From positions 32,001 to 96,000 of IMG/VR virus record IMGVR_UViG_3300037041_002705: a DNA stretch of 64,000 nucleotides; one strand, given 5' to 3'. Made by a program: the position numbers and the translations under genes. This stretch comes from a virus. The notes under the pieces were generated by a model. That model had not been told where the DNA came from and made no database searches. It saw only the letters and a program-made list of their open reading frames with translations. Below, one piece after another: positions 42,588 to 49,064 of this stretch (positions within the stretch are counted from its first letter, which is position 1; the number at the start of each line of letters is the position of its first letter).

Positions 42588-44408
42588 ATGAATCTACAGC
42601 TTTTGAATGAAGCACAGATCATCAATGAGTGGACACCAATGCTCGAGTCAGTAGGCGTCAAGGACGGCTACAAGAAGAACTGGATGTCAAAGTACTGCCA
42701 CTATCATCAGATGAACGAAAGCTTCGTAAACGAATCTTTCCAAGGCACAGGCCTTGCACAGCTTATCAATGTTCCTGGTCAAGGACCAGTAAACATGGGT
42801 ACAGCAATGACGACACCTGCAAACTTCTACAACACATCGTACCAAGGATCAGGTGATAAGTTCCCATCGCTTCTTCCGCTTGCAATCCAGGTTGCAGCAA
42901 AGACGGTTGGTTTTGACATCGTTTCTGTTATCCCGATGCCAGGTCCAACAGGCATCCTTCCTTACCTTGACTACATCTATGCAGGCGGTAAGGTTGATCT
43001 TGATGGCACAACAAACTCAAATGCTACACAGCCTTTGATGATCAGCATTGCAGCTACATCGGTCTACGATGATCCAACAGTTGGTGACACATACTATGCT
43101 GCACCTCTTCAGGCTGCTGCAGACACATCAAGCGCAACAGGTTACTCTGTAACTCTTGCTGCTGACGTTGCTGCAAAGCTTATCTATGTTGGTAAGTCAT
43201 TTGTAACAGGTGATCTTATCTTCCGTGTTACATCAACAGGCAACGTTTCTTCAGCTGGTGCTTACACAGCAGGTGCAGACACGAACACAGTAACGATTGC
43301 TCAAGTTTTTGATGTAGGCTCAGGCAACACATTCTCATCTATCCTTGGTGAAGCTAGCACAAACACTGCAAGCGATGAAGCATATGCTTCAGCAAACGGT
43401 ACAACGGCTAGCCCATTCCGCCCAGGTTATGTGAGCGCCCTTGAGAACCACATCTATGGCTTCTCAGGTGCAGGTGCAAATGACACAAACACTTGGAACG
43501 GTCCATTCACAGATGGTACAAAGGCATACGATCCAATGAGCAGGGGCACAGGTGAAGAAACCTACCCACGCGCAATGGGCATCCAGACGTTCACAAAGAA
43601 CGTACAAGCTGGTACATTCCAGGTAACGATCAGCGTAACAACTGAGCAGATCCAGGACATGAACCGCCAGTTCGGTATCGATATCCTTGCGATGGCAGAA
43701 GGCGTACTTGTTAATGAGGTATCTCAGTCAATCAACAAGCACATCCTTTCACGCGCATTCGCTCTTGGATGGCAGAATAACTATGATGTTTATCAGACAC
43801 AAGGCTTCACACTGAACCTTTCGCTTGATCCAACACAGACAGCTTCTGCAACATCGTCATCGTACATCGGCAAGACAAACGGAGCTCTTACATGGAATAA
43901 CAACATTCCAGCGTATGCAGATTACGGAAACTTCGAGAACCTCTCGACAGCACAACAGCGCATCGTCAGCAAGATCCACGCTGCTTCAAACCTCGTCCAC
44001 ACACGTGGTCGTCGTGGCCCAGCGAACTTTGTTGTAACGAACGCTCAAGTTCTGTCAGCTCTTAACATCGTTAAGGGATTCTCGCTTGCTCCATTCGATA
44101 ACACGCTCAACCAGTCAAGCGGTCAGCTGTACCCAGCAGGCACGCTGTTTGGAATGACAGTATATGTTGATCCAAACATGACATGGAATGACACACGCGT
44201 TCTCGTTGGCCGTAAGGGTGCTGACATCGAGCCAGGCATCAAGTTCATGCCTTACCTCATGGCAGAGTCTATCAGCACAATCGCTGAAGGCACAATGTCA
44301 CCTAAGATTGCTGTCAAGAGCCGTTACGCTCTTGTTGAGGCTGGCTTCTATCCAGAAGCTCAGTACTATGCATTCTGGGTTGAAACACCTGCTGCAGGTA
44401 TCGTCTAA
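42588..44408 (+). CDS. Major capsid protein (gp23-like)
   Basis: EWTPMLES, DIVSVIPMPGPTG, EQIQDM..FGID, NEVSQSINK, RRGPANF, FMPY, PKIAVKSRYAL; strong codon bias. Confidence 0.95.
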   Translation: MNLQLLNEAQIINEWTPMLESVGVKDGYKKNWMSKYCHYHQMNESFVNESFQGTGLAQLINVPGQGPVNMGTAMTTPANFYNTSYQGSGDKFPSLLPLAIQVAAKTVGFDIVSVIPMPGPTGILPYLDYIYAGGKVDLDGTTNSNATQPLMISIAATSVYDDPTVGDTYYAAPLQAAADTSSATGYSVTLAADVAAKLIYVGKSFVTGDLIFRVTSTGNVSSAGAYTAGADTNTVTIAQVFDVGSGNTFSSILGEASTNTASDEAYASANGTTASPFRPGYVSALENHIYGFSGAGANDTNTWNGPFTDGTKAYDPMSRGTGEETYPRAMGIQTFTKNVQAGTFQVTISVTTEQIQDMNRQFGIDILAMAEGVLVNEVSQSINKHILSRAFALGWQNNYDVYQTQGFTLNLSLDPTQTASATSSSYIGKTNGALTWNNNIPAYADYGNFENLSTAQQRIVSKIHAASNLVHTRGRRGPANFVVTNAQVLSALNIVKGFSLAPFDNTLNQSSGQLYPAGTLFGMTVYVDPNMTWNDTRVLVGRKGADIEPGIKFMPYLMAESISTIAEGTMSPKIAVKSRYALVEAGFYPEAQYYAFWVETPAAGIV

Positions 44409-45423: not shown

Positions 45424-45855
45424 ATGAAAAAAACCTTTCGAGCCCCGGCAAGCCCATTCATGTACCGCCAGGAGGTCTACCAGGATGATCCCTGGAAGAT
45501 GCTATTGATATGCATGATGCTCAACCAGACCTGCTACAAACAGGTTGATAAGGTAAGGGATGCATTCTTTGATAGGTTTCCTACGCCGGAGGACCTGCTC
45601 GCTGCAACCGATGATGAGATCATACAAATAATACGCCCTCTTGGGTTCTACAACAGAAGAGCCAAACAATGGAAGAAGTTTTCAAAGGAGTGGCTGTCTT
45701 GGGATGGGTCCAATGTCACAGATCTTTCTGGCGTTGGAAAGTATGCGTCAGACTCCTGGAAGATATTTCAAGAAGGGGTGTACTCCATAACTGTTGAGGA
45801 TAAGGAGCTGAAGAAATACCTTCAGTGGATAAATGAAAGTGGATACAACAAATAA
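45424..45855 (+). CDS. Stand-alone MBD4-like HhH DNA glycosylase
   Basis: SPF..QE...DPWK....LNQT, PLGFYNRRA, GVGKYASDSWKIF, EDKELKKY, colinear with the MBD4 catalytic domain as recalled. Confidence 0.85.
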   Translation: MKKTFRAPASPFMYRQEVYQDDPWKMLLICMMLNQTCYKQVDKVRDAFFDRFPTPEDLLAATDDEIIQIIRPLGFYNRRAKQWKKFSKEWLSWDGSNVTDLSGVGKYASDSWKIFQEGVYSITVEDKELKKYLQWINESGYNK

Positions 45856-45885: not shown

Positions 45886-46152
45886 ATGAGCATACTATCA
45901 GAAGCAGATGGAATAGTAAACAACAGGTCTGAAGAAGCAGATCGCCAGTACGGCCCATTCAGCGAAGGCATGGAAAGGGCTGCCATGATATTCAATGGAA
46001 TGACTGGTCTTGATCTTGGAGCAGAACACATGTTCAAGGCACTTGTTGCCCTAAAGCTTTCAAGAGAAAGCTACAGGCACAAGAGGGACAACCTTCTTGA
46101 CGCTGTTGCATACATACAGGGCCTTGAGAACTACATAAATGAGAGGTCGTAA
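45886..46152 (+). CDS. DUF6378-like small all-alpha protein
   Basis: ILSEADGIV..R..QYG.F; LKLSRE..HKRDNLLDAVAY. Confidence 0.7.
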   Translation: MSILSEADGIVNNRSEEADRQYGPFSEGMERAAMIFNGMTGLDLGAEHMFKALVALKLSRESYRHKRDNLLDAVAYIQGLENYINERS

Positions 46153-47231
46153 TGGCGTTGGCGATATATGACATCCTAAGCAACCTACGAGGAAAAAGGA
46201 TTGCAATTGATGATGTCGTAACAACATATAGCCCAAAGAAGGAATCTCATAAGTCTTCTTGGCCATATCTTCTCAGTTCACAACTAAGAAGCGTCGGACT
46301 GATGTCGGATGTTCTGGCAAAGAATGATGACATCAACAGGTATGATGTTTGGTTGATATCGCTTCCAATGGAGTTCCAAGGAACTTTCAACCTCTTTGGC
46401 GGCGCAAATGAAGAGACTGCTTTGAGGATAAAGAGGCTATCCCAGTTCAAGGGTCAGATCTACATACTCAATCAGGACATGCCAGACATCGGAGCCTTTG
46501 TAAATTCAAGGATGAATGCTGCATGCGATGAATGGAAGCAGCTCGATCCAAGCCTCTATACAGATATATCAAACAGAATAGAGAGGGTCGATCTCACACT
46601 CGACAGCGATACATTCATATATGGCGACAGCCATTCTGTATCGGTCTATGAGCCAGGTGCAAACATAAGCAGGAACGACGGTCAGACGCTCCATGGATTC
46701 CTTAAGAAGAAGGATTCCTTTTTGTATCCTCCTGGAACAAAGAGGGTTGTTCTTTATATGGGAAACATTGATGTGCGGCACCATATCTTTCGTCAGGAAG
46801 ATCCCATGGGCTCTCTTCGTGATCTTACAAAGAGGTATGTTGAGTTTGCAAAGGAGCTGAAGGATGTCCATGGCATGGAGTATGTTGGCCTCGTTGACCT
46901 GCTTCCTGTTGAGCACGAGGGAAGAAAGATACCAAAGACCGGTTGGTACAAGGGAACTCCATTCTTTGGAACAAGGCAACAGAGGGCAGATGCGGTCAAG
47001 GAATTCAATAAGCTCCTCAACGAGCTTTCTTATGACTATGACTACGATGTCATCTCTTGGCCAAAGGACTGGTATGTATTGGACCCGGACAAGTATGCCG
47101 CACAATACATGGAAAGGCCAGGATCCGTTCATCTTTCAAGATCTGCATACCAGTATGACTTTGAGACCGGTATAAAGAACAAAAAGATGAGGACATCCGT
47201 CCTATTTTTTGATATAACTGGGAGCGTTTAA
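46152..47231 (+). CDS. Putative DNA-modifying enzyme: BGT-like N-domain + SGNH-type C-domain
   Basis: KRIAI..RYDVWLI..FNLFGG..FKGQIYILNQD; GDSHS, MGNIDVRHH, SVHLS. Confidence 0.55.
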   Translation: MALAIYDILSNLRGKRIAIDDVVTTYSPKKESHKSSWPYLLSSQLRSVGLMSDVLAKNDDINRYDVWLISLPMEFQGTFNLFGGANEETALRIKRLSQFKGQIYILNQDMPDIGAFVNSRMNAACDEWKQLDPSLYTDISNRIERVDLTLDSDTFIYGDSHSVSVYEPGANISRNDGQTLHGFLKKKDSFLYPPGTKRVVLYMGNIDVRHHIFRQEDPMGSLRDLTKRYVEFAKELKDVHGMEYVGLVDLLPVEHEGRKIPKTGWYKGTPFFGTRQQRADAVKEFNKLLNELSYDYDYDVISWPKDWYVLDPDKYAAQYMERPGSVHLSRSAYQYDFETGIKNKKMRTSVLFFDITGSV

Positions 47232-47248
47232 CAGTGTATAAAGAATCT

Positions 47249-48094
47249 ATGACGAAGACCATAAACAGTGAAGTCCTTTCCCTTCTATCAAAGATGGAAA
47301 GGGAAGATTCGCCAAGAGGGCTCAAGGTTGTTGAAGAATATCTGACGACCCTTGAGTTCAATCCTCTCTATCCAATGATGAACTTTGAAAACAAGGCATT
47401 CAATTGGAAGTACTTTGTAGGAGAGCTATGGTGGTACCTTACACAAGAGACCACGATTGACAAGATCAATAACTTCTCTAGCTTCTGGAAGACCCTTACC
47501 GTTGATGAGAGGATCAACTCAAACTATGGGTATGTGATGTTGTCAAGGCAACACAATCAATTCAAGTGGGCGCTTGATGCCCTTGTAAGAGATAAGTCAA
47601 CGAGACAGGCCATAATGGTGTTCAACACGCCGGCATACCAAAAGGAAGGTGTCAAGGACTTTGTATGTACAATGTATGTCAATTTCTGGATAAGAGACAA
47701 CAAGTTGAACATGAAGGTCCAGATGAGATCCAATGACATATTCTATGGCCTTCAGTACGATGCACCGTTCTTCTCGGTCGTGTATCAATCGATGTACCTT
47801 GAGCTGATCAAGAAGTATGAGGATCTAGAGATAGGAACCTATTACCACTGCTCAGATAACTCACACTACTACGAAAGACACTTTCCTCTTGTTGAGAAGC
47901 TTAAGCAAGAACAGCCAAACCCAGAAAGAGAGATTGAAATGAGGATCACACGACCTGTGTTTGATTCCTCTGAATCAGGAATTAGTAAGAATGCCATGGA
48001 GTTTGTTGATTACATGGAACAGATCCATGACTTCTCGATCTTTAACACATATGATTACATAGAAATATTTCACAAATTTTTTGTAGAGGAATAA
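47249..48094 (+). CDS. Thymidylate-synthase-family enzyme, dCMP hydroxymethylase (T4 gp42)-like
   Basis: INSNYG, RQA, DFVCT, MRSNDIFYGLQYD (Asp at the specificity site), HYYERH. Confidence 0.8.
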   Translation: MTKTINSEVLSLLSKMEREDSPRGLKVVEEYLTTLEFNPLYPMMNFENKAFNWKYFVGELWWYLTQETTIDKINNFSSFWKTLTVDERINSNYGYVMLSRQHNQFKWALDALVRDKSTRQAIMVFNTPAYQKEGVKDFVCTMYVNFWIRDNKLNMKVQMRSNDIFYGLQYDAPFFSVVYQSMYLELIKKYEDLEIGTYYHCSDNSHYYERHFPLVEKLKQEQPNPEREIEMRITRPVFDSSESGISKNAMEFVDYMEQIHDFSIFNTYDYIEIFHKFFVEE

Positions 48095-48342
48095 TGGAAG
48101 CGACAGAACAAACAACAGAAACTGCGCAGGAGCGCCAACAAACGCCTGCTTATGTCATCGATGATCCAGCAAAGGCGATCAATGTTCTTGTGAATGCAGC
48201 AGAACATGCACAGCGTCTTGGTGCTTACAGCATGCAAGAAGCAAAGATCATCTATGATGCAATTGTATTCTTCAGGCCTGATAGGTCAGTTGAAGCAGTA
48301 AATGCTGCAGCGGCCCAAGAGGAGCAGCAACAGCAGGCTTAA
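48094..48342 (+). CDS. Small hypothetical protein
   Basis: GAGGA upstream; AINVLVNAAEHAQRLGAYSMQEA. Confidence 0.65.
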   Translation: MEATEQTTETAQERQQTPAYVIDDPAKAINVLVNAAEHAQRLGAYSMQEAKIIYDAIVFFRPDRSVEAVNAAAAQEEQQQQA

Positions 48343-48344
48343 CA

Positions 48345-49064
48345 ATGAAAAGGTGCCTTGTCATAGCGACCGTTGCTGAGGGCGGATTCTACAACGATCT
48401 TCCTTTGGGGTCGGATGCTGAGGCATCACGCACTTTTGATCTCATAAAGATAAACTTCAATCCTGTTGGGTTTTCTAGGGAATCCATAAACCATAGCCAT
48501 CAACCATGGTACCAAGAAGATGTAGGATTCAAACACCACATCTACAAGAGGCTGATAGAAAAACTGAATCTTCTTGATAGATATGACTGGATCTGGATGC
48601 CTGACTACGATGTCCATCTTGAACAGTCAGAGATTGAGAGGATGTTTAAGATCGCACAGGAATACAACCTGAACATCTGTCAGCCTTCTCTTACGCATGA
48701 TAGCTACCATAGCTTTCCTTTTGTACTGAACGATCCAACAAAGTTCATGAGGTACACAAACTACGTTGAGATCATGTGCCCGCTGTTCAAGACAGAAGCG
48801 CTGAAGAAGGTCCTTTGGACATTTACCATCACACACTCTGGTTGGGCACAGGATTTTCTTTGGGCAAGGGATCTCAACTATGAAAGGCTTGCAATCATTG
48901 ATGATGTACAGGCAAAACATGTCAAACCAGTTGAGAGCCAATATTGGCAGCTTCCAAATGGATTAAATGCTGATCAGGAGCTTGACATGGCAATAAAATT
49001 GTTTGGTCTTCAAAAGGAAATGTTCTGGCCTAAAGCAATAGGAGGAATAGATCGATGGACATAA
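48345..49064 (+). CDS. DUF707-like (GT-A) putative glycosyltransferase
   Basis: YDWIWMPDYDV, ICQPSL, TNYVEIMCPLF, GWAQDFLW, AIIDD...H. Confidence 0.75.
   Translation: MKRCLVIATVAEGGFYNDLPLGSDAEASRTFDLIKINFNPVGFSRESINHSHQPWYQEDVGFKHHIYKRLIEKLNLLDRYDWIWMPDYDVHLEQSEIERMFKIAQEYNLNICQPSLTHDSYHSFPFVLNDPTKFMRYTNYVEIMCPLFKTEALKKVLWTFTITHSGWAQDFLWARDLNYERLAIIDDVQAKHVKPVESQYWQLPNGLNADQELDMAIKLFGLQKEMFWPKAIGGIDRWT

What the first reader, a model, noticed from the sequence alone, without database searches (positions are those of the whole stretch)
46152..47231. T4 beta-glucosyltransferase acceptor domain fused to an SGNH domain
Seen versus recalled T4 BGT: KRIAI/MKIAI, DINRYDVWLI/DVNDYDRLIV, FNLFGG/INFFGG (base-flipping loop) and FKGQIYILNQD/YKSKIYYLFTD (ending at the Asp100 catalytic base). 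The UDP-glucose-binding half is replaced by GDSHS...MGNIDVR...SVHL, the SGNH Ser/His pattern. Known: SGNH domains act as O-acyltransferases (OatA, PatB) as well as esterases. Inference: it flips hmC and transfers an acyl group through a Ser acyl-enzyme, or removes one. The alignment is from memory and needs confirmation.
Basis: partly seen in the sequence, partly recalled or inferred. Interest (0 to 1): 0.88.

Follow-up and report, generated by a model that had tools for sequence, protein, structure and literature searches.

The report
Glucosyltransferase DNA-domain fused to esterase-type domain
A large uncultured phage encodes an unstudied, widespread enzyme that joins the DNA-handling half of phage T4's DNA glucosyltransferase to a serine esterase/acyltransferase-type half, and it most likely acts on hydroxymethylcytosine in the phage's own DNA.

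Summary
Window 46152-47231 (+) is a real 359-aa gene.

- **N-terminal domain.** Residues 15-109 are homologous to residues 1-100 of T4 beta-glucosyltransferase (BGT): profile-profile probability 94.7%, E 5.7e-8. BGT is also the top structural hit by two aligners, though weakly.
- **What fails.** The residue aligned to BGT's catalytic Asp100 is not conserved (Asp in 48/259), and no sugar-donor domain exists. It is therefore not a glucosyltransferase.

The family is large (716 clusters at 50% identity) and appears viral only. No description turned up in my paper searches. Earlier agents of this scan found the same family on other DNA and read it the same way.

New here is the context:

- The gene sits beside a gp42-type dCMP hydroxymethylase.
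- Across 100 related loci it travels with one of two mutually exclusive cassettes. One is a PF18723 protein with inositol-phosphate synthase; the other is an unknown 404-aa protein with a PLP enzyme.
- It is fused to either partner in 10 proteins.
- The P-loop 5-hmdU DNA kinase is absent from every genome checked.
- The family occurs in Aeromonas phages 31, 44RR2.8t and 25, which carry gene 42 but no glucosyltransferase.

Best reading, inferred and not shown: the enzyme O-acylates hydroxymethylcytosine in DNA, standing where the kinase stands in known pathways.

The parts
46152..47231 (+). Target gene, 359 aa: BGT-like N-domain plus SGNH-fold C-domain
   Evidence: ORF with ATG start. 677 homologues. 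716 clusters at 50% identity. AF2 model pLDDT 90.0, pTM 0.87.
46152..46601 (+). N-domain, residues 1-150, homologous to the N-terminal (acceptor/DNA-side) domain of T4 beta-glucosyltransferase
46602..47216 (+). C-domain, residues 151-355, SGNH/GDSL fold
46623..46634 (+). Block I motif G158-D159-S160-H161, with the putative nucleophile Ser160
   Evidence: G 265/266, D 266/266, S 265/266, H 266/266. The motif sits at the end of the first strand of the SGNH domain. It aligns with the GDS motif of E. coli TesA, but only at probability 1.1%.
47112..47132 (+). E321...S325-V326-H327, the putative catalytic His (block V) without the usual Asp at -3
   Evidence: E321 263/263, S325 252/263, H327 261/263. 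Position 324 is Gly in the window.
47234..48094 (+). Thymidylate-synthase homologue, predicted dCMP hydroxymethylase (gp42 type), 2 nt downstream of the target
   Evidence: PF00303 E 6.9e-21. 31% identity to T4 gp42, E 4e-22. Asp at the gp42 D145, D171 and D179 positions and Cys at C148. It is the only TS homologue in the 133.7-kb record.
45886..46152 (+). DUF6378 protein, 88 aa; its stop overlaps the target's ATG by 1 nt
   Evidence: PF19905 E 2.3e-8. Present beside the target in 76/80 IMG/VR loci but only 1/20 MAG loci. Structure-alike clusters include a DUF4406/DUF6378 fusion.
45424..45855 (+). MBD4-like HhH-GPD DNA glycosylase, 143 aa
   Evidence: PF00730 E 2.3e-12. phmmer against mouse/human MBD4 glycosylase domains: 1ngn E 3.1e-23 over residues 3-139.
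48345..49064 (+). DUF707 protein, 239 aa, in the same tightly packed + strand gene string
   Evidence: PF05212 E 5e-6, 26.4 bits, over the cut-off. Conserved downstream in the window-type loci (cluster c68).

Best explanation
The gene encodes a post-replicative DNA-modifying enzyme of a hydroxymethylcytosine (hmC) phage.

**Shown:**
- The N-domain is homologous to the acceptor-side domain of T4 BGT.
- The C-domain is an SGNH fold with a near-invariant Ser160/His327 pair.
- The gene is next to a gp42-type dCMP hydroxymethylase.
- The family is the constant element of two alternative DNA-hypermodification cassettes and is fused to their signature proteins.
- The P-loop 5-hmdU DNA kinase and the amino-acid:DNA transferase of the known thymidine pathways are missing from every genome checked.

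**Inferred:**
- The BGT-like domain presents the 5-CH2OH group of hmC in DNA to the cleft between the domains, as BGT does.
- The SGNH domain carries an acyl group on Ser160. The donor is unknown; a common metabolite such as an acyl-CoA is my guess.
- That acyl group is passed to the hydroxymethyl oxygen, giving 5-acyloxymethylcytosine.
- In cassette-bearing phages this ester would then act as the leaving group, as phosphate does in the 5-HMUDK pathway. The donor-specific partner would displace it: the PF18723 protein with an inositol-type donor, or the 404-aa protein with an amino-acid-type donor.
- In the window's own phage no such partner is seen in the 42% of the genome in hand. There the ester may be the end product, or another enzyme such as the DUF707 protein may take over.
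For: **Domain homology and fold:**

**Conserved catalytic set in 266 sequences:** D159 266/266, S160 265/266, H161 266/266, D207 266/266, R258 264/264, R278 263/263, E321 263/263, H327 261/263.

**hmC context:**
- The TS homologue 2 nt downstream carries the gp42 signature. 18 of the 19 TS-like neighbours (window included) carry the full signature, and the 19th is cut by a contig end.
- Canonical ThyA is also present in 3 of 5 large related contigs, and a second, gp42-like homologue in 2 of them, so thymine is still made.

**Cassette logic in 100 loci (80 IMG/VR, 20 MAG):**
- c7 (PF18723, E 7.9e-14) or c14 is present in 80/100, and never both (0/100).
- MIPS occurs with c7 in 46 loci and with c14 in 0. 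The PLP enzyme occurs with c14 in 25 loci and with c7 in 0.
- Of the 20 loci with neither, 5 are window-type and the other 15 are cut short by contig ends on the relevant side.
- Gene order differs between the IMG/VR and MAG sets, yet the same partners recur.

**Fusions:**
- 8 proteins are target + c14-like.
- P0170, identical in length and architecture to the Aeromonas phage 31 protein (795 aa), is target + c7-like.
- P0132 is FkbM + c7 + target.

**No kinase:**
- c7 has no Walker A motif in 0/35 members, and c14 in 0/23.
- PF18748 is absent from 5/5 large contigs and from the complete genomes of Aeromonas phages 31 and Aes508, with phage M6 as positive control at 1.1e-19.
- PF18724 is absent from 4/4 of these, with the M6 control at 2.3e-48.
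- In M6 the kinase gp54 (PF18748) sits next to gp55 (PF18723). That is the position the target holds here.

**Cultured phages:** Aeromonas phages 44RR, 31 and 25 carry gene 42 and lack glucosyltransferases (PMC2993671, passages). They are the cultured phages that carry this family. BGT is absent in 3/3 genomes checked, with T4 as control at 1e-99.
Against: **No chemistry was tested.**
- The SGNH fold is mostly hydrolytic, and the structural neighbours do not separate transferases from esterases.
- Pfam's GDSL model is below its cut-off, and no PDB sequence matches.
- The block II and block III equivalences rest on motif order only. GNID is out of register with the usual GxND, and the block V Asp is missing.
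- I could not inspect model coordinates, so it is not shown that Ser160 and His327 face the interdomain cleft.

**The N-domain evidence is modest.**
- The sequence alignment covers only residues 15-109.

**The cluster of invariant Arg, His and Asp residues is unusual for SGNH enzymes.** D159, H161, D207, R209, H211, R214, R258 and R278 could point to phosphate or metal chemistry instead.

**The role of the partners is unknown.**
- M6 gp55 (PF18723) was dispensable for glycinyl-thymidine formation in lysates (PMC8989533, passage).
- c14 has no detectable homology to c7. Only language-model look-alike clusters link them, with 11-36% of members carrying PF18723.

**The window's own record holds neither c7 nor c14.**

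**A 5-acyloxymethylcytosine has never been reported in DNA, to my knowledge (recalled).**
Confidence: 0.4

Rival explanations
1. Roles reversed. The partner protein (PF18723-type c7, or c14) activates the hydroxymethyl group. The target is the transferase or lyase that carries out the substitution on the activated base, with Ser160/His327 acting as nucleophile and base, for instance by attack at C6 or by activating the incoming hydroxyl or amine.
For: - The tight pairing and fusions hold equally well under this order.
- Many invariant Arg and His residues (R209, H210, H211, R214, R258, R278) could bind a phosphate leaving group.
- Pfam names PF18723 a domain of the DNA kinase.
Against: - c7 and c14 have no Walker A motif (0/35 and 0/23), and no P-loop kinase is found.
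- The variable proteins track the donor-synthesis genes perfectly (46/0 and 25/0). That pattern is expected of the donor-binding enzyme, not of the activator.
- The target is the donor-independent constant.
Confidence: 0.15
2. The target is a tailoring O-acyltransferase or O-acylesterase. It works on the group already attached to cytosine (sugar, cyclitol or amino-acid adduct) rather than on hmC itself, as OatA, PatB and sialate esterases work on glycans.
For: - Carbohydrate esterases and peptidoglycan O-acetyltransferases are among the structural neighbours.
- Neighbours make polyols or sugars: MIPS with a HAD-like phosphatase, UDP-galactopyranose mutase in Aes508, and a solute symporter in phage 31.
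- A DUF707 gene lies three genes downstream in the window.
Against: - The same enzyme family serves cassettes with unrelated donors.
- It also occurs with nothing but the hydroxymethylase nearby in window-type loci.
- The retained BGT domain is the one that handles hmC-DNA, not the sugar.
Confidence: 0.15
3. The target is a plain hydrolase. It would remove an ester from DNA or from a small-molecule precursor (for example proofreading or maturation of a modification), or hydrolyse a host molecule.
For: - Most characterised SGNH proteins are hydrolases, and the top structural hits are esterases.
Against: - No ester-forming enzyme is seen in the cassettes for it to reverse.
- Strict co-inheritance with the hydroxymethylase and fusion to cassette proteins argue for a biosynthetic step.
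Confidence: 0.12
4. The enzyme does not act on DNA. The N-domain is merely a Rossmann-like module, and the enzyme acts on a nucleotide, a nucleotide-sugar or the cell envelope.
For: - BGT's catalytic Asp is not kept.
- In Tenacibaculum phage PTm5 the homologue lies between ribonucleotide reductase genes.
Against: - The profile-profile match is specific to BGT (E 5.7e-8), and BGT ranks first in two independent structure searches.
- Partners belong to DNA-hypermodification families: PF18723, and a PLP enzyme of the phrog 'threonine dehydratase' class, as in M6.
Confidence: 0.08

Closest known systems
T4 DNA beta-glucosyltransferase (BGT; Pfam PF09198; PDB 1qkj, 1c3j)
   Same: - The N-terminal domain is homologous: hhalign 94.7%, residues 15-109 on BGT 1-100.
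- BGT is the top structural hit.
- The N-x-x-G-G loop is shared with the BGT invariants N70, G73 and G74.
- The gene lies next to the dCMP hydroxymethylase gene, as b-gt lies next to gene 42 in T4.
   Different: - There is no UDP-glucose-binding Rossmann domain; the C-half is an SGNH fold.
- The catalytic Asp100 position is not conserved.
- No PF09198 match appears at E <= 1.
- The protein is not a GT-B enzyme and cannot be a glucosyltransferase of the BGT type.
SGNH/GDSL hydrolases and acyltransferases (e.g. 7e16 esterase, TesA 1ivn, PatB 7tjb, OatA 6vjp)
   Same: - GDS with Ser at the end of strand 1, and a late His, are both near-invariant.
   Different: - It carries an extra BGT-like domain.
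- Block I reads GDSH, with an invariant His after the Ser.
- Block III reads GNID.
- There is no Asp three residues before the His.
- It has a set of invariant Arg, His, Asp and Glu residues not typical of the superfamily.
- It scores below Pfam's cut-off.
- It is cytoplasmic and phage-encoded, in DNA-modification cassettes.
5-hmdU DNA kinase pathway of thymidine-hypermodifying phages (M6 gp54 PF18748, gp55 PF18723, gp51 PF18724, gp52 PLP; PMC8989533, passages read)
   Same: - The cassette logic is the same: a TS-family hydroxymethylase, a constant first enzyme, donor-specific partners and a PLP enzyme.
- A PF18723 protein is adjacent or fused.
   Different: - The base is predicted to be cytosine, not uracil.
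- No P-loop kinase (PF18748) and no amino-acid:DNA transferase (PF18724) is found.
- The enzyme beside PF18723 is the BGT_N-SGNH protein.
- New accessory genes appear: inositol-phosphate synthase, a HAD-like protein and an FkbM methyltransferase.

Membership tests
T4 beta-glucosyltransferase family (PF09198, GT-B) | N-terminal acceptor-side Rossmann-like domain homologous to BGT residues 1-~165 | tested here: met
   [not shown]
T4 beta-glucosyltransferase family (PF09198, GT-B) | C-terminal nucleotide-sugar-binding Rossmann domain (second half of the GT-B fold) | tested here: not met
   [not shown]
T4 beta-glucosyltransferase family (PF09198, GT-B) | Conserved catalytic Asp (BGT Asp100; T99-D100 are invariant in 26 BGT-family sequences) | tested here: not met
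   The window has D109 at the aligned column. The family column reads E 93, P 64, D 48, K 15 of 259.
T4 beta-glucosyltransferase family (PF09198, GT-B) | Match to the Pfam model over its cut-off | tested here: not met
   No PF09198 hit at E <= 1.
SGNH/GDSL superfamily | Three-layer alpha/beta/alpha SGNH fold | tested here: met
   [not shown]
SGNH/GDSL superfamily | Block I GDS with nucleophilic Ser | tested here: met
   G158-D159-S160 follows the first strand of the domain. S is kept in 265/266.
SGNH/GDSL superfamily | Block II Gly and block III Asn (oxyanion hole) | tested here: inconclusive
   The candidates are G177 (230/266) and N205 in G-N-I-D (243/266). They are assigned by order along the chain only. 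The register differs from GxND, and no coordinates were available to check.
SGNH/GDSL superfamily | Block V DxxH (catalytic His with Asp) | tested here: inconclusive
   H327 is kept in 261/263. Position -3 is Gly in the window, not Asp. The invariant E321 (263/263) might supply the acid.
SGNH/GDSL superfamily | Pfam GDSL model over its gathering score | tested here: not met
   PF00657 scores 19.8 bits against a cut-off of 23.6, E 9.3e-4.
5-hmdU DNA kinase (PF18748) | P-loop kinase domain | tested here: not met
   The target has no PF18748 hit at E <= 1. The family works where the kinase would stand but is not a kinase homologue.
Amino acid:DNA transferase (PF18724, aGPT-Pplase2) | Match to the family model | tested here: not met
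   The target has no hit. PF18724 is also absent from 4/4 related genomes, with the M6 control positive.

The most novel reading that the evidence does not exclude
A kinase-independent route to cytosine hypermodification. A BGT-derived DNA-handling domain feeds hydroxymethylcytosine to an SGNH acyltransferase, giving the first enzymatic O-acylation of a DNA base. The ester then serves as the leaving group, and donor-specific partners replace it. One cassette (inositol-phosphate synthase, HAD-like phosphatase, O-methyltransferase) would hang a cyclitol on cytosine. This would also name the missing hmC-modifying enzyme of Aeromonas phages 44RR2.8t, 31 and 25.
Probability: 0.3. Interest if true: 0.95.

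Novelty: new variant of a known kind. Interest (0 to 1): 0.8.

Why it matters
Phage DNA hypermodifications decide whether restriction enzymes, CRISPR systems and other defences can cut a phage genome, and they supply tools for epigenetic sequencing.

The known routes from 5-hydroxymethyl pyrimidines are direct glycosylation (T-even phages), or phosphorylation followed by substitution (thymidine pathway).

This family would add a third kind of first step, built by swapping the donor half of a glucosyltransferase for an esterase/acyltransferase fold.

It also bears on a question left open in 2010: what Aeromonas phages 44RR, 31 and 25, which make hm-dCMP but lack glucosyltransferases, do with their hmC (PMC2993671, passages). 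Those phages are cultured, so the idea can be tested directly by nucleoside mass spectrometry and knockouts.

Tried and rejected
**Searches that found nothing useful**
- Sequence searches of the PDB with the protein and with the family profile found nothing real: 0 hits, then two spurious hits at E 0.14 and 0.38.
- hhalign of the family against single-sequence E. coli TesA aligned only the GDS motif, at probability 1.1%. It is therefore not used as evidence.
- c14 (404 aa) and c22 (368 aa) have no Pfam or PHROG match even at E <= 5, and c14 has no PDB sequence match.
- hhalign of c14 against c7 was negative twice: probability 0.4 and 0.9. hhalign of c14 against M6 gp51 was also negative. The only lead to PF18723 for c14 is the Atlas look-alike list, where 11-36% of cluster members carry it.
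- M6 gp51 and gp55 show no BLASTP similarity. I therefore dropped my recalled idea that PF18723 and PF18724 are close paralogues.
- The DUF6378 profile has no PDB sequence match. hhalign against the neighbouring NTP-pyrophosphatase-like cluster was negative. My guess that DUF6378 is MazG-like is unsupported.
- PDB hits of the DUF707 protein are designed repeat proteins with 0 matched stretches, and were ignored.

**Ideas considered and dropped**
- The MBD4-like HhH-GPD protein as the partner of the target. Its full-length match to MBD4 glycosylase makes a repair role the simpler reading.

**No verdict**
- Complex prediction of the target with DUF6378 scored 0.00 in both runs. This is neither for nor against binding.

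**Paper searches that found no description of this family**
-.
- Term look-ups inside PMC8989533, PMC13326640 and the 2023 glycosyltransferase preprint.
The metavirome contig tables of PMC8989533 and the gene lists of the preprint might show these genes unannotated.

**Not testable here**
- Structure prediction was capped at two jobs, so c7, c14 and DUF6378 were not folded.
- No model coordinates were available, so active-site geometry and domain packing were not examined.
Full report
**What is there.** Window 46152-47231 (+) is an ATG-started ORF of 359 aa. It lies in a run of + strand genes with gaps or overlaps of at most 30 nt:

| Coordinates | Gene | Evidence |
|---|---|---|
| 45424-45855 | HhH-GPD protein | |
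| 45886-46152 | DUF6378 | |
| 46152-47231 | target | |
| 47234-48094 | thymidylate-synthase homologue | |
| 48094-48342 | 82-aa ORF | |
| 48345-49064 | DUF707 | |

The window is phage DNA. A gp23-type major capsid gene lies at 42588-44408, and its nearest database relatives are very large phages at about 40% identity. The record is a 133.7-kb viral contig estimated to be 42% complete.

**The observation.**
- BLASTP aligns target 60-110 with BGT 55-101 (E 0.008).
- I built a 34-sequence family alignment and a 26-sequence BGT-family alignment from 42 homologues. hhalign aligns target 15-109 with BGT 1-100 at probability 94.7% and E 5.7e-8.
- The family's near-invariant N80, G83 and G84 fall on the BGT invariants N70, G73 and G74.

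An AlphaFold2 model of the whole protein is confident (pLDDT 90.0, pTM 0.87).
- In the viral structure library, the first three hits are family members, including Aeromonas phage 31 ORF233c.

**What is conserved.** I aligned 266 sequences: the window protein, 120 relatives and 145 representatives.

| Domain | Residue | Conservation |
|---|---|---|
| SGNH | G158 | 265/266 |
| SGNH | D159 | 266/266 |
| SGNH | S160 | 265/266 |
| SGNH | H161 | 266/266 |
| SGNH | D207 | 266/266 |
| SGNH | R209 | 264/266 |
| SGNH | H211 | 264/266 |
| SGNH | R258 | 264/264 |
| SGNH | R278 | 263/263 |
| SGNH | E321 | 263/263 |
| SGNH | H327 | 261/263 |
| N-domain | S32 | 249/255 |
| N-domain | H33 | 251/255 |
| N-domain | N80 | 252/260 |
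| N-domain | G84 | 250/259 |
| N-domain | R120 | 244/261 |

- The column aligned to BGT's Asp100 is variable: E 93, P 64, D 48, K 15 of 259.
- The sugar-transfer machinery of BGT is therefore gone, both the donor domain and the catalytic base. A Ser/His site typical of SGNH enzymes is under strong constraint.
- The site is atypical in four ways: His follows the Ser, block III reads GNID, there is no Asp at -3 from the His, and several invariant Arg and His residues are present.

**The family.**
- 677 homologues were found at E <= 1e-3. Of the 120 listed, none carries a Pfam domain, and the only names given are 'hypothetical protein'.
- A profile search of 1.84 billion representatives finds 716 clusters, 328 of them at E <= 1e-30.
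- Among cultured phages, tblastn finds it in 43 records: Aeromonas 38, Tenacibaculum 3, Stenotrophomonas 2.
- In 185,579 species genomes only 20 loci were confirmed, all on MAG contigs. The family therefore looks viral only.
- PHROGs hold it as two families of unknown function. One of them, phrog_17781, is a 795-aa fused form.

**Context.** I clustered their open frames and searched them with local HMMs. Two cassettes recur.

- *Cassette A:*
  - an inositol-1-phosphate synthase homologue (PF01658, E 1.4e-22);
  - a 132-aa protein with a DxDGV motif, which I read from memory as HAD-phosphatase-like;
  - usually an FkbM methyltransferase;
  - c7, a PF18723 'HMUDK_hel' protein (E 7.9e-14).
- *Cassette B:*
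  - c14, a 404-aa protein with no family;
  - usually c22 (368 aa, no family);
  - a PLP enzyme of the phrog 'threonine dehydratase' class.

The counts across the 100 loci:
- c7 or c14 is present in 80/100, and never both (0/100).
- MIPS occurs with c7 in 46 loci and with c14 in 0. The PLP enzyme occurs with c14 in 25 and with c7 in 0.
- Of the 20 loci with neither, 5 are of the window's own type. The other 15 end at a contig edge before the place where the partner would lie.

Gene order gives further support.
- The MAG loci are only 28-35% identical to the window protein and have a different gene order, with the target last rather than first. They carry the same cassettes, now mostly with the TS homologue at the head (12/20).
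- DUF6378 is adjacent in 76/80 IMG/VR loci but only 1/20 MAG loci. It is therefore a lineage feature, not part of the core.

Fusions say the same thing.
- Eight proteins are target + c14-like.
- P0170, identical in length and architecture to the Aeromonas phage 31 protein (795 aa), is target + c7-like (the phage 31 protein itself).
- P0132 is FkbM + c7 + target.

**Which base.**
- The window's TS homologue is 31% identical to T4 gp42 (E 4e-22). It has Asp at the position of gp42 Asp179, the residue that selects cytosine (its role is quoted in PMC13326640, passages).
- It also has Asp at the positions of gp42 D145 and D171.
- A 2026 paper reports that TS homologues making 5-hydroxy-dCMP have Asn at the position of E. 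coli Asp169 (PMC13326640, passages). By my mapping through the RSxD motif, which is my own and uses recalled E. coli numbering, the window enzyme keeps Asp there. I therefore predict 5hm-dCMP.
- All TS-like neighbours in the loci share the pattern: 18 of 19, window included, with the 19th cut by a contig end.
- Canonical ThyA was found in 3 of 5 large related contigs, and a second, divergent gp42-like TS homologue alongside it in 2 of them.
- T4, Aeromonas phages 31 and Aes508, and Tenacibaculum PTm5 each hold a canonical td plus a gp42-like homologue.

**Where the kinase is not.**
- In phage M6 the reference module reads gp51 PF18724 (amino-acid:DNA transferase), gp52 PLP, gp54 PF18748 (P-loop 5-hmdU DNA kinase), gp55 PF18723 (functions from PMC8989533, passages).
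- In the target's cassettes the PF18723 protein is present, but c7 and c14 have no Walker A motif (0/35 and 0/23).
- PF18748 is absent from 5/5 large contigs (34-77% complete) and from the complete genomes of Aeromonas phages 31 and Aes508, with M6 as positive control.
- PF18724 is absent from 4/4 genomes checked, with the M6 control positive.
- The target thus stands beside or fused to PF18723, where the kinase stands in M6.
- Earlier agents of this scan reached this reading on another genome. I adopted it after my own checks.
- Caveat: the function of PF18723 is not known. M6 gp55 was not needed to make glycinyl-thymidine in lysates.

**Mechanism proposed (inferred).**
- BGT's N-domain binds DNA and presents hmC's hydroxyl to the donor held by the C-domain (established for BGT; recalled).
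- Here the acceptor side is kept and the donor side is replaced by a fold whose chemistry is an acyl-serine intermediate.
- The simplest transfer of that logic is acylation of the 5-CH2OH group.
- The target is common to cassettes with unrelated donors, while c7 and c14 track the donor genes. The target should therefore perform the donor-independent step.
- An ester, like the phosphate in the thymidine pathway, would make the methylene carbon open to substitution by a hydroxyl (cyclitol) or an amine (amino acid).
- SGNH enzymes that load from acyl-CoA are known to me from memory (CASD1, SsfX3), but I did not check them here.

I put 0.4 on this specific reading and about 0.75 on the broader statement that the enzyme acts on hmC in phage DNA. 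The rivals are:
- reversed roles;
- tailoring of the attached group;
- plain hydrolase;
- a non-DNA substrate.

**The window's own phage.**
- It belongs to a third locus type, found in 5 further loci. The order is MBD4-like glycosylase, DUF6378, target, dCMP hydroxymethylase, an 82-aa ORF, DUF707.
- Neither c7, c14 nor PF18723 is found in the 133.7 kb available, but more than half of the genome is missing.
- DUF707 may be a glycosyltransferase (recalled clan assignment, not tested).
- The MBD4-like protein matches the MBD4 glycosylase domain end to end (E 3.1e-23). It would fit repair of deaminated hmC.

**Link to an old question.** Petrov et al. 2010 list Aeromonas phages 44RR, 31 and 25 as carrying genes 42 and 56 but no glucosyltransferase. 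They ask whether such phages modify hm-dCMP in another way (PMC2993671, passages). These are the cultured phages that carry the family. BGT is absent from the two Aeromonas genomes and from PTm5. In phage 31 a sodium:solute symporter gene lies directly upstream of the fusion. In Aes508 a UDP-galactopyranose mutase lies two genes upstream.

**Novelty.** My searches found no paper describing this architecture or linking an SGNH protein to DNA modification (look-ups). Supplements could not be opened. The scan itself has noted the same family before on other DNA, with the same main reading. I class it as a new variant of a known kind, namely phage hm-pyrimidine hypermodification. If the acyl chemistry is real, the chemistry itself would be new.

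Noticed in passing
window 45424-45855 (+): A 143-aa protein matches the glycosylase domain of mammalian MBD4 end to end (1ngn E 3.1e-23, residues 3-139), including the GKY..DS motif region. It is a candidate G:T/U/hmU mismatch glycosylase inside an hmC cassette. It is present in 9/80 IMG/VR loci.
   Followed up: partly
window 47234-48094 (+): This thymidylate-synthase homologue carries the gp42 signature: Asp at gp42 positions 145, 171 and 179, and Cys at 148. I predict a 5hm-dCMP synthase rather than a 5-hydroxy-dCMP synthase. It is the only TS homologue in the 133.7-kb record.
   Followed up: yes
L008-L056 and L110-L124 (e.g. L113:2869-6933, L119:1140-7068): A phage cassette holds an inositol-1-phosphate synthase homologue, a 132-aa DxDGV-motif (HAD-like) protein, an FkbM methyltransferase and a PF18723 protein next to the target and a gp42-type gene. 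It suggests a cyclitol-type adduct on cytosine. My paper search linking inositol-phosphate synthase, phage and DNA modification found nothing.
   Followed up: partly
L057-L083, L105-L107, L112, L115, L122, L123: The alternative cassette holds c14 (404 aa) and c22 (368 aa), neither with any Pfam, PHROG or PDB sequence match, plus a PLP enzyme of the class found in thymidine-hypermodifying phages. c14 is fused to the target in 8 proteins.
   Followed up: partly
window 45886-46152 (+): This DUF6378 protein is very strongly conserved (47 invariant or nearly invariant positions of 88 in 17 sequences), and its stop overlaps the target's start. Atlas structure look-alikes include a DUF4406/DUF6378 fusion. 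Its function is unknown.
   Followed up: partly
L001:4420-5943 (Aeromonas phage 31) and L002:3331-4395 (Aes508): A phage-encoded sodium:solute symporter (PF00474, E 7e-53) lies directly upstream of the target-PF18723 fusion in phage 31. A UDP-galactopyranose mutase (PF03275, E 1.7e-53) lies two genes upstream of the homologue in Aes508.
   Followed up: no
window 48345-49064 (+): A DUF707 protein (PF05212, 26.4 bits, over the cut-off) lies in the same gene string. It is conserved downstream only in window-type loci and might be a glycosyltransferase, which I did not test.
   Followed up: no
L081:8564-9964 and relatives (cluster c8): A 466-aa ORF carries the family-B DNA polymerase exonuclease domain and only the first part of the polymerase domain. 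It is followed by further conserved ORFs, which hints at a split polB gene in these phages.
   Followed up: no
window 42588-44408 (+): The gp23-type major capsid protein has its closest cultured or named relatives among 460-550-kb phages (Lak phages, about 39% identity). The record is estimated to be 42% complete, so the host phage is probably a jumbo phage.
   Followed up: no
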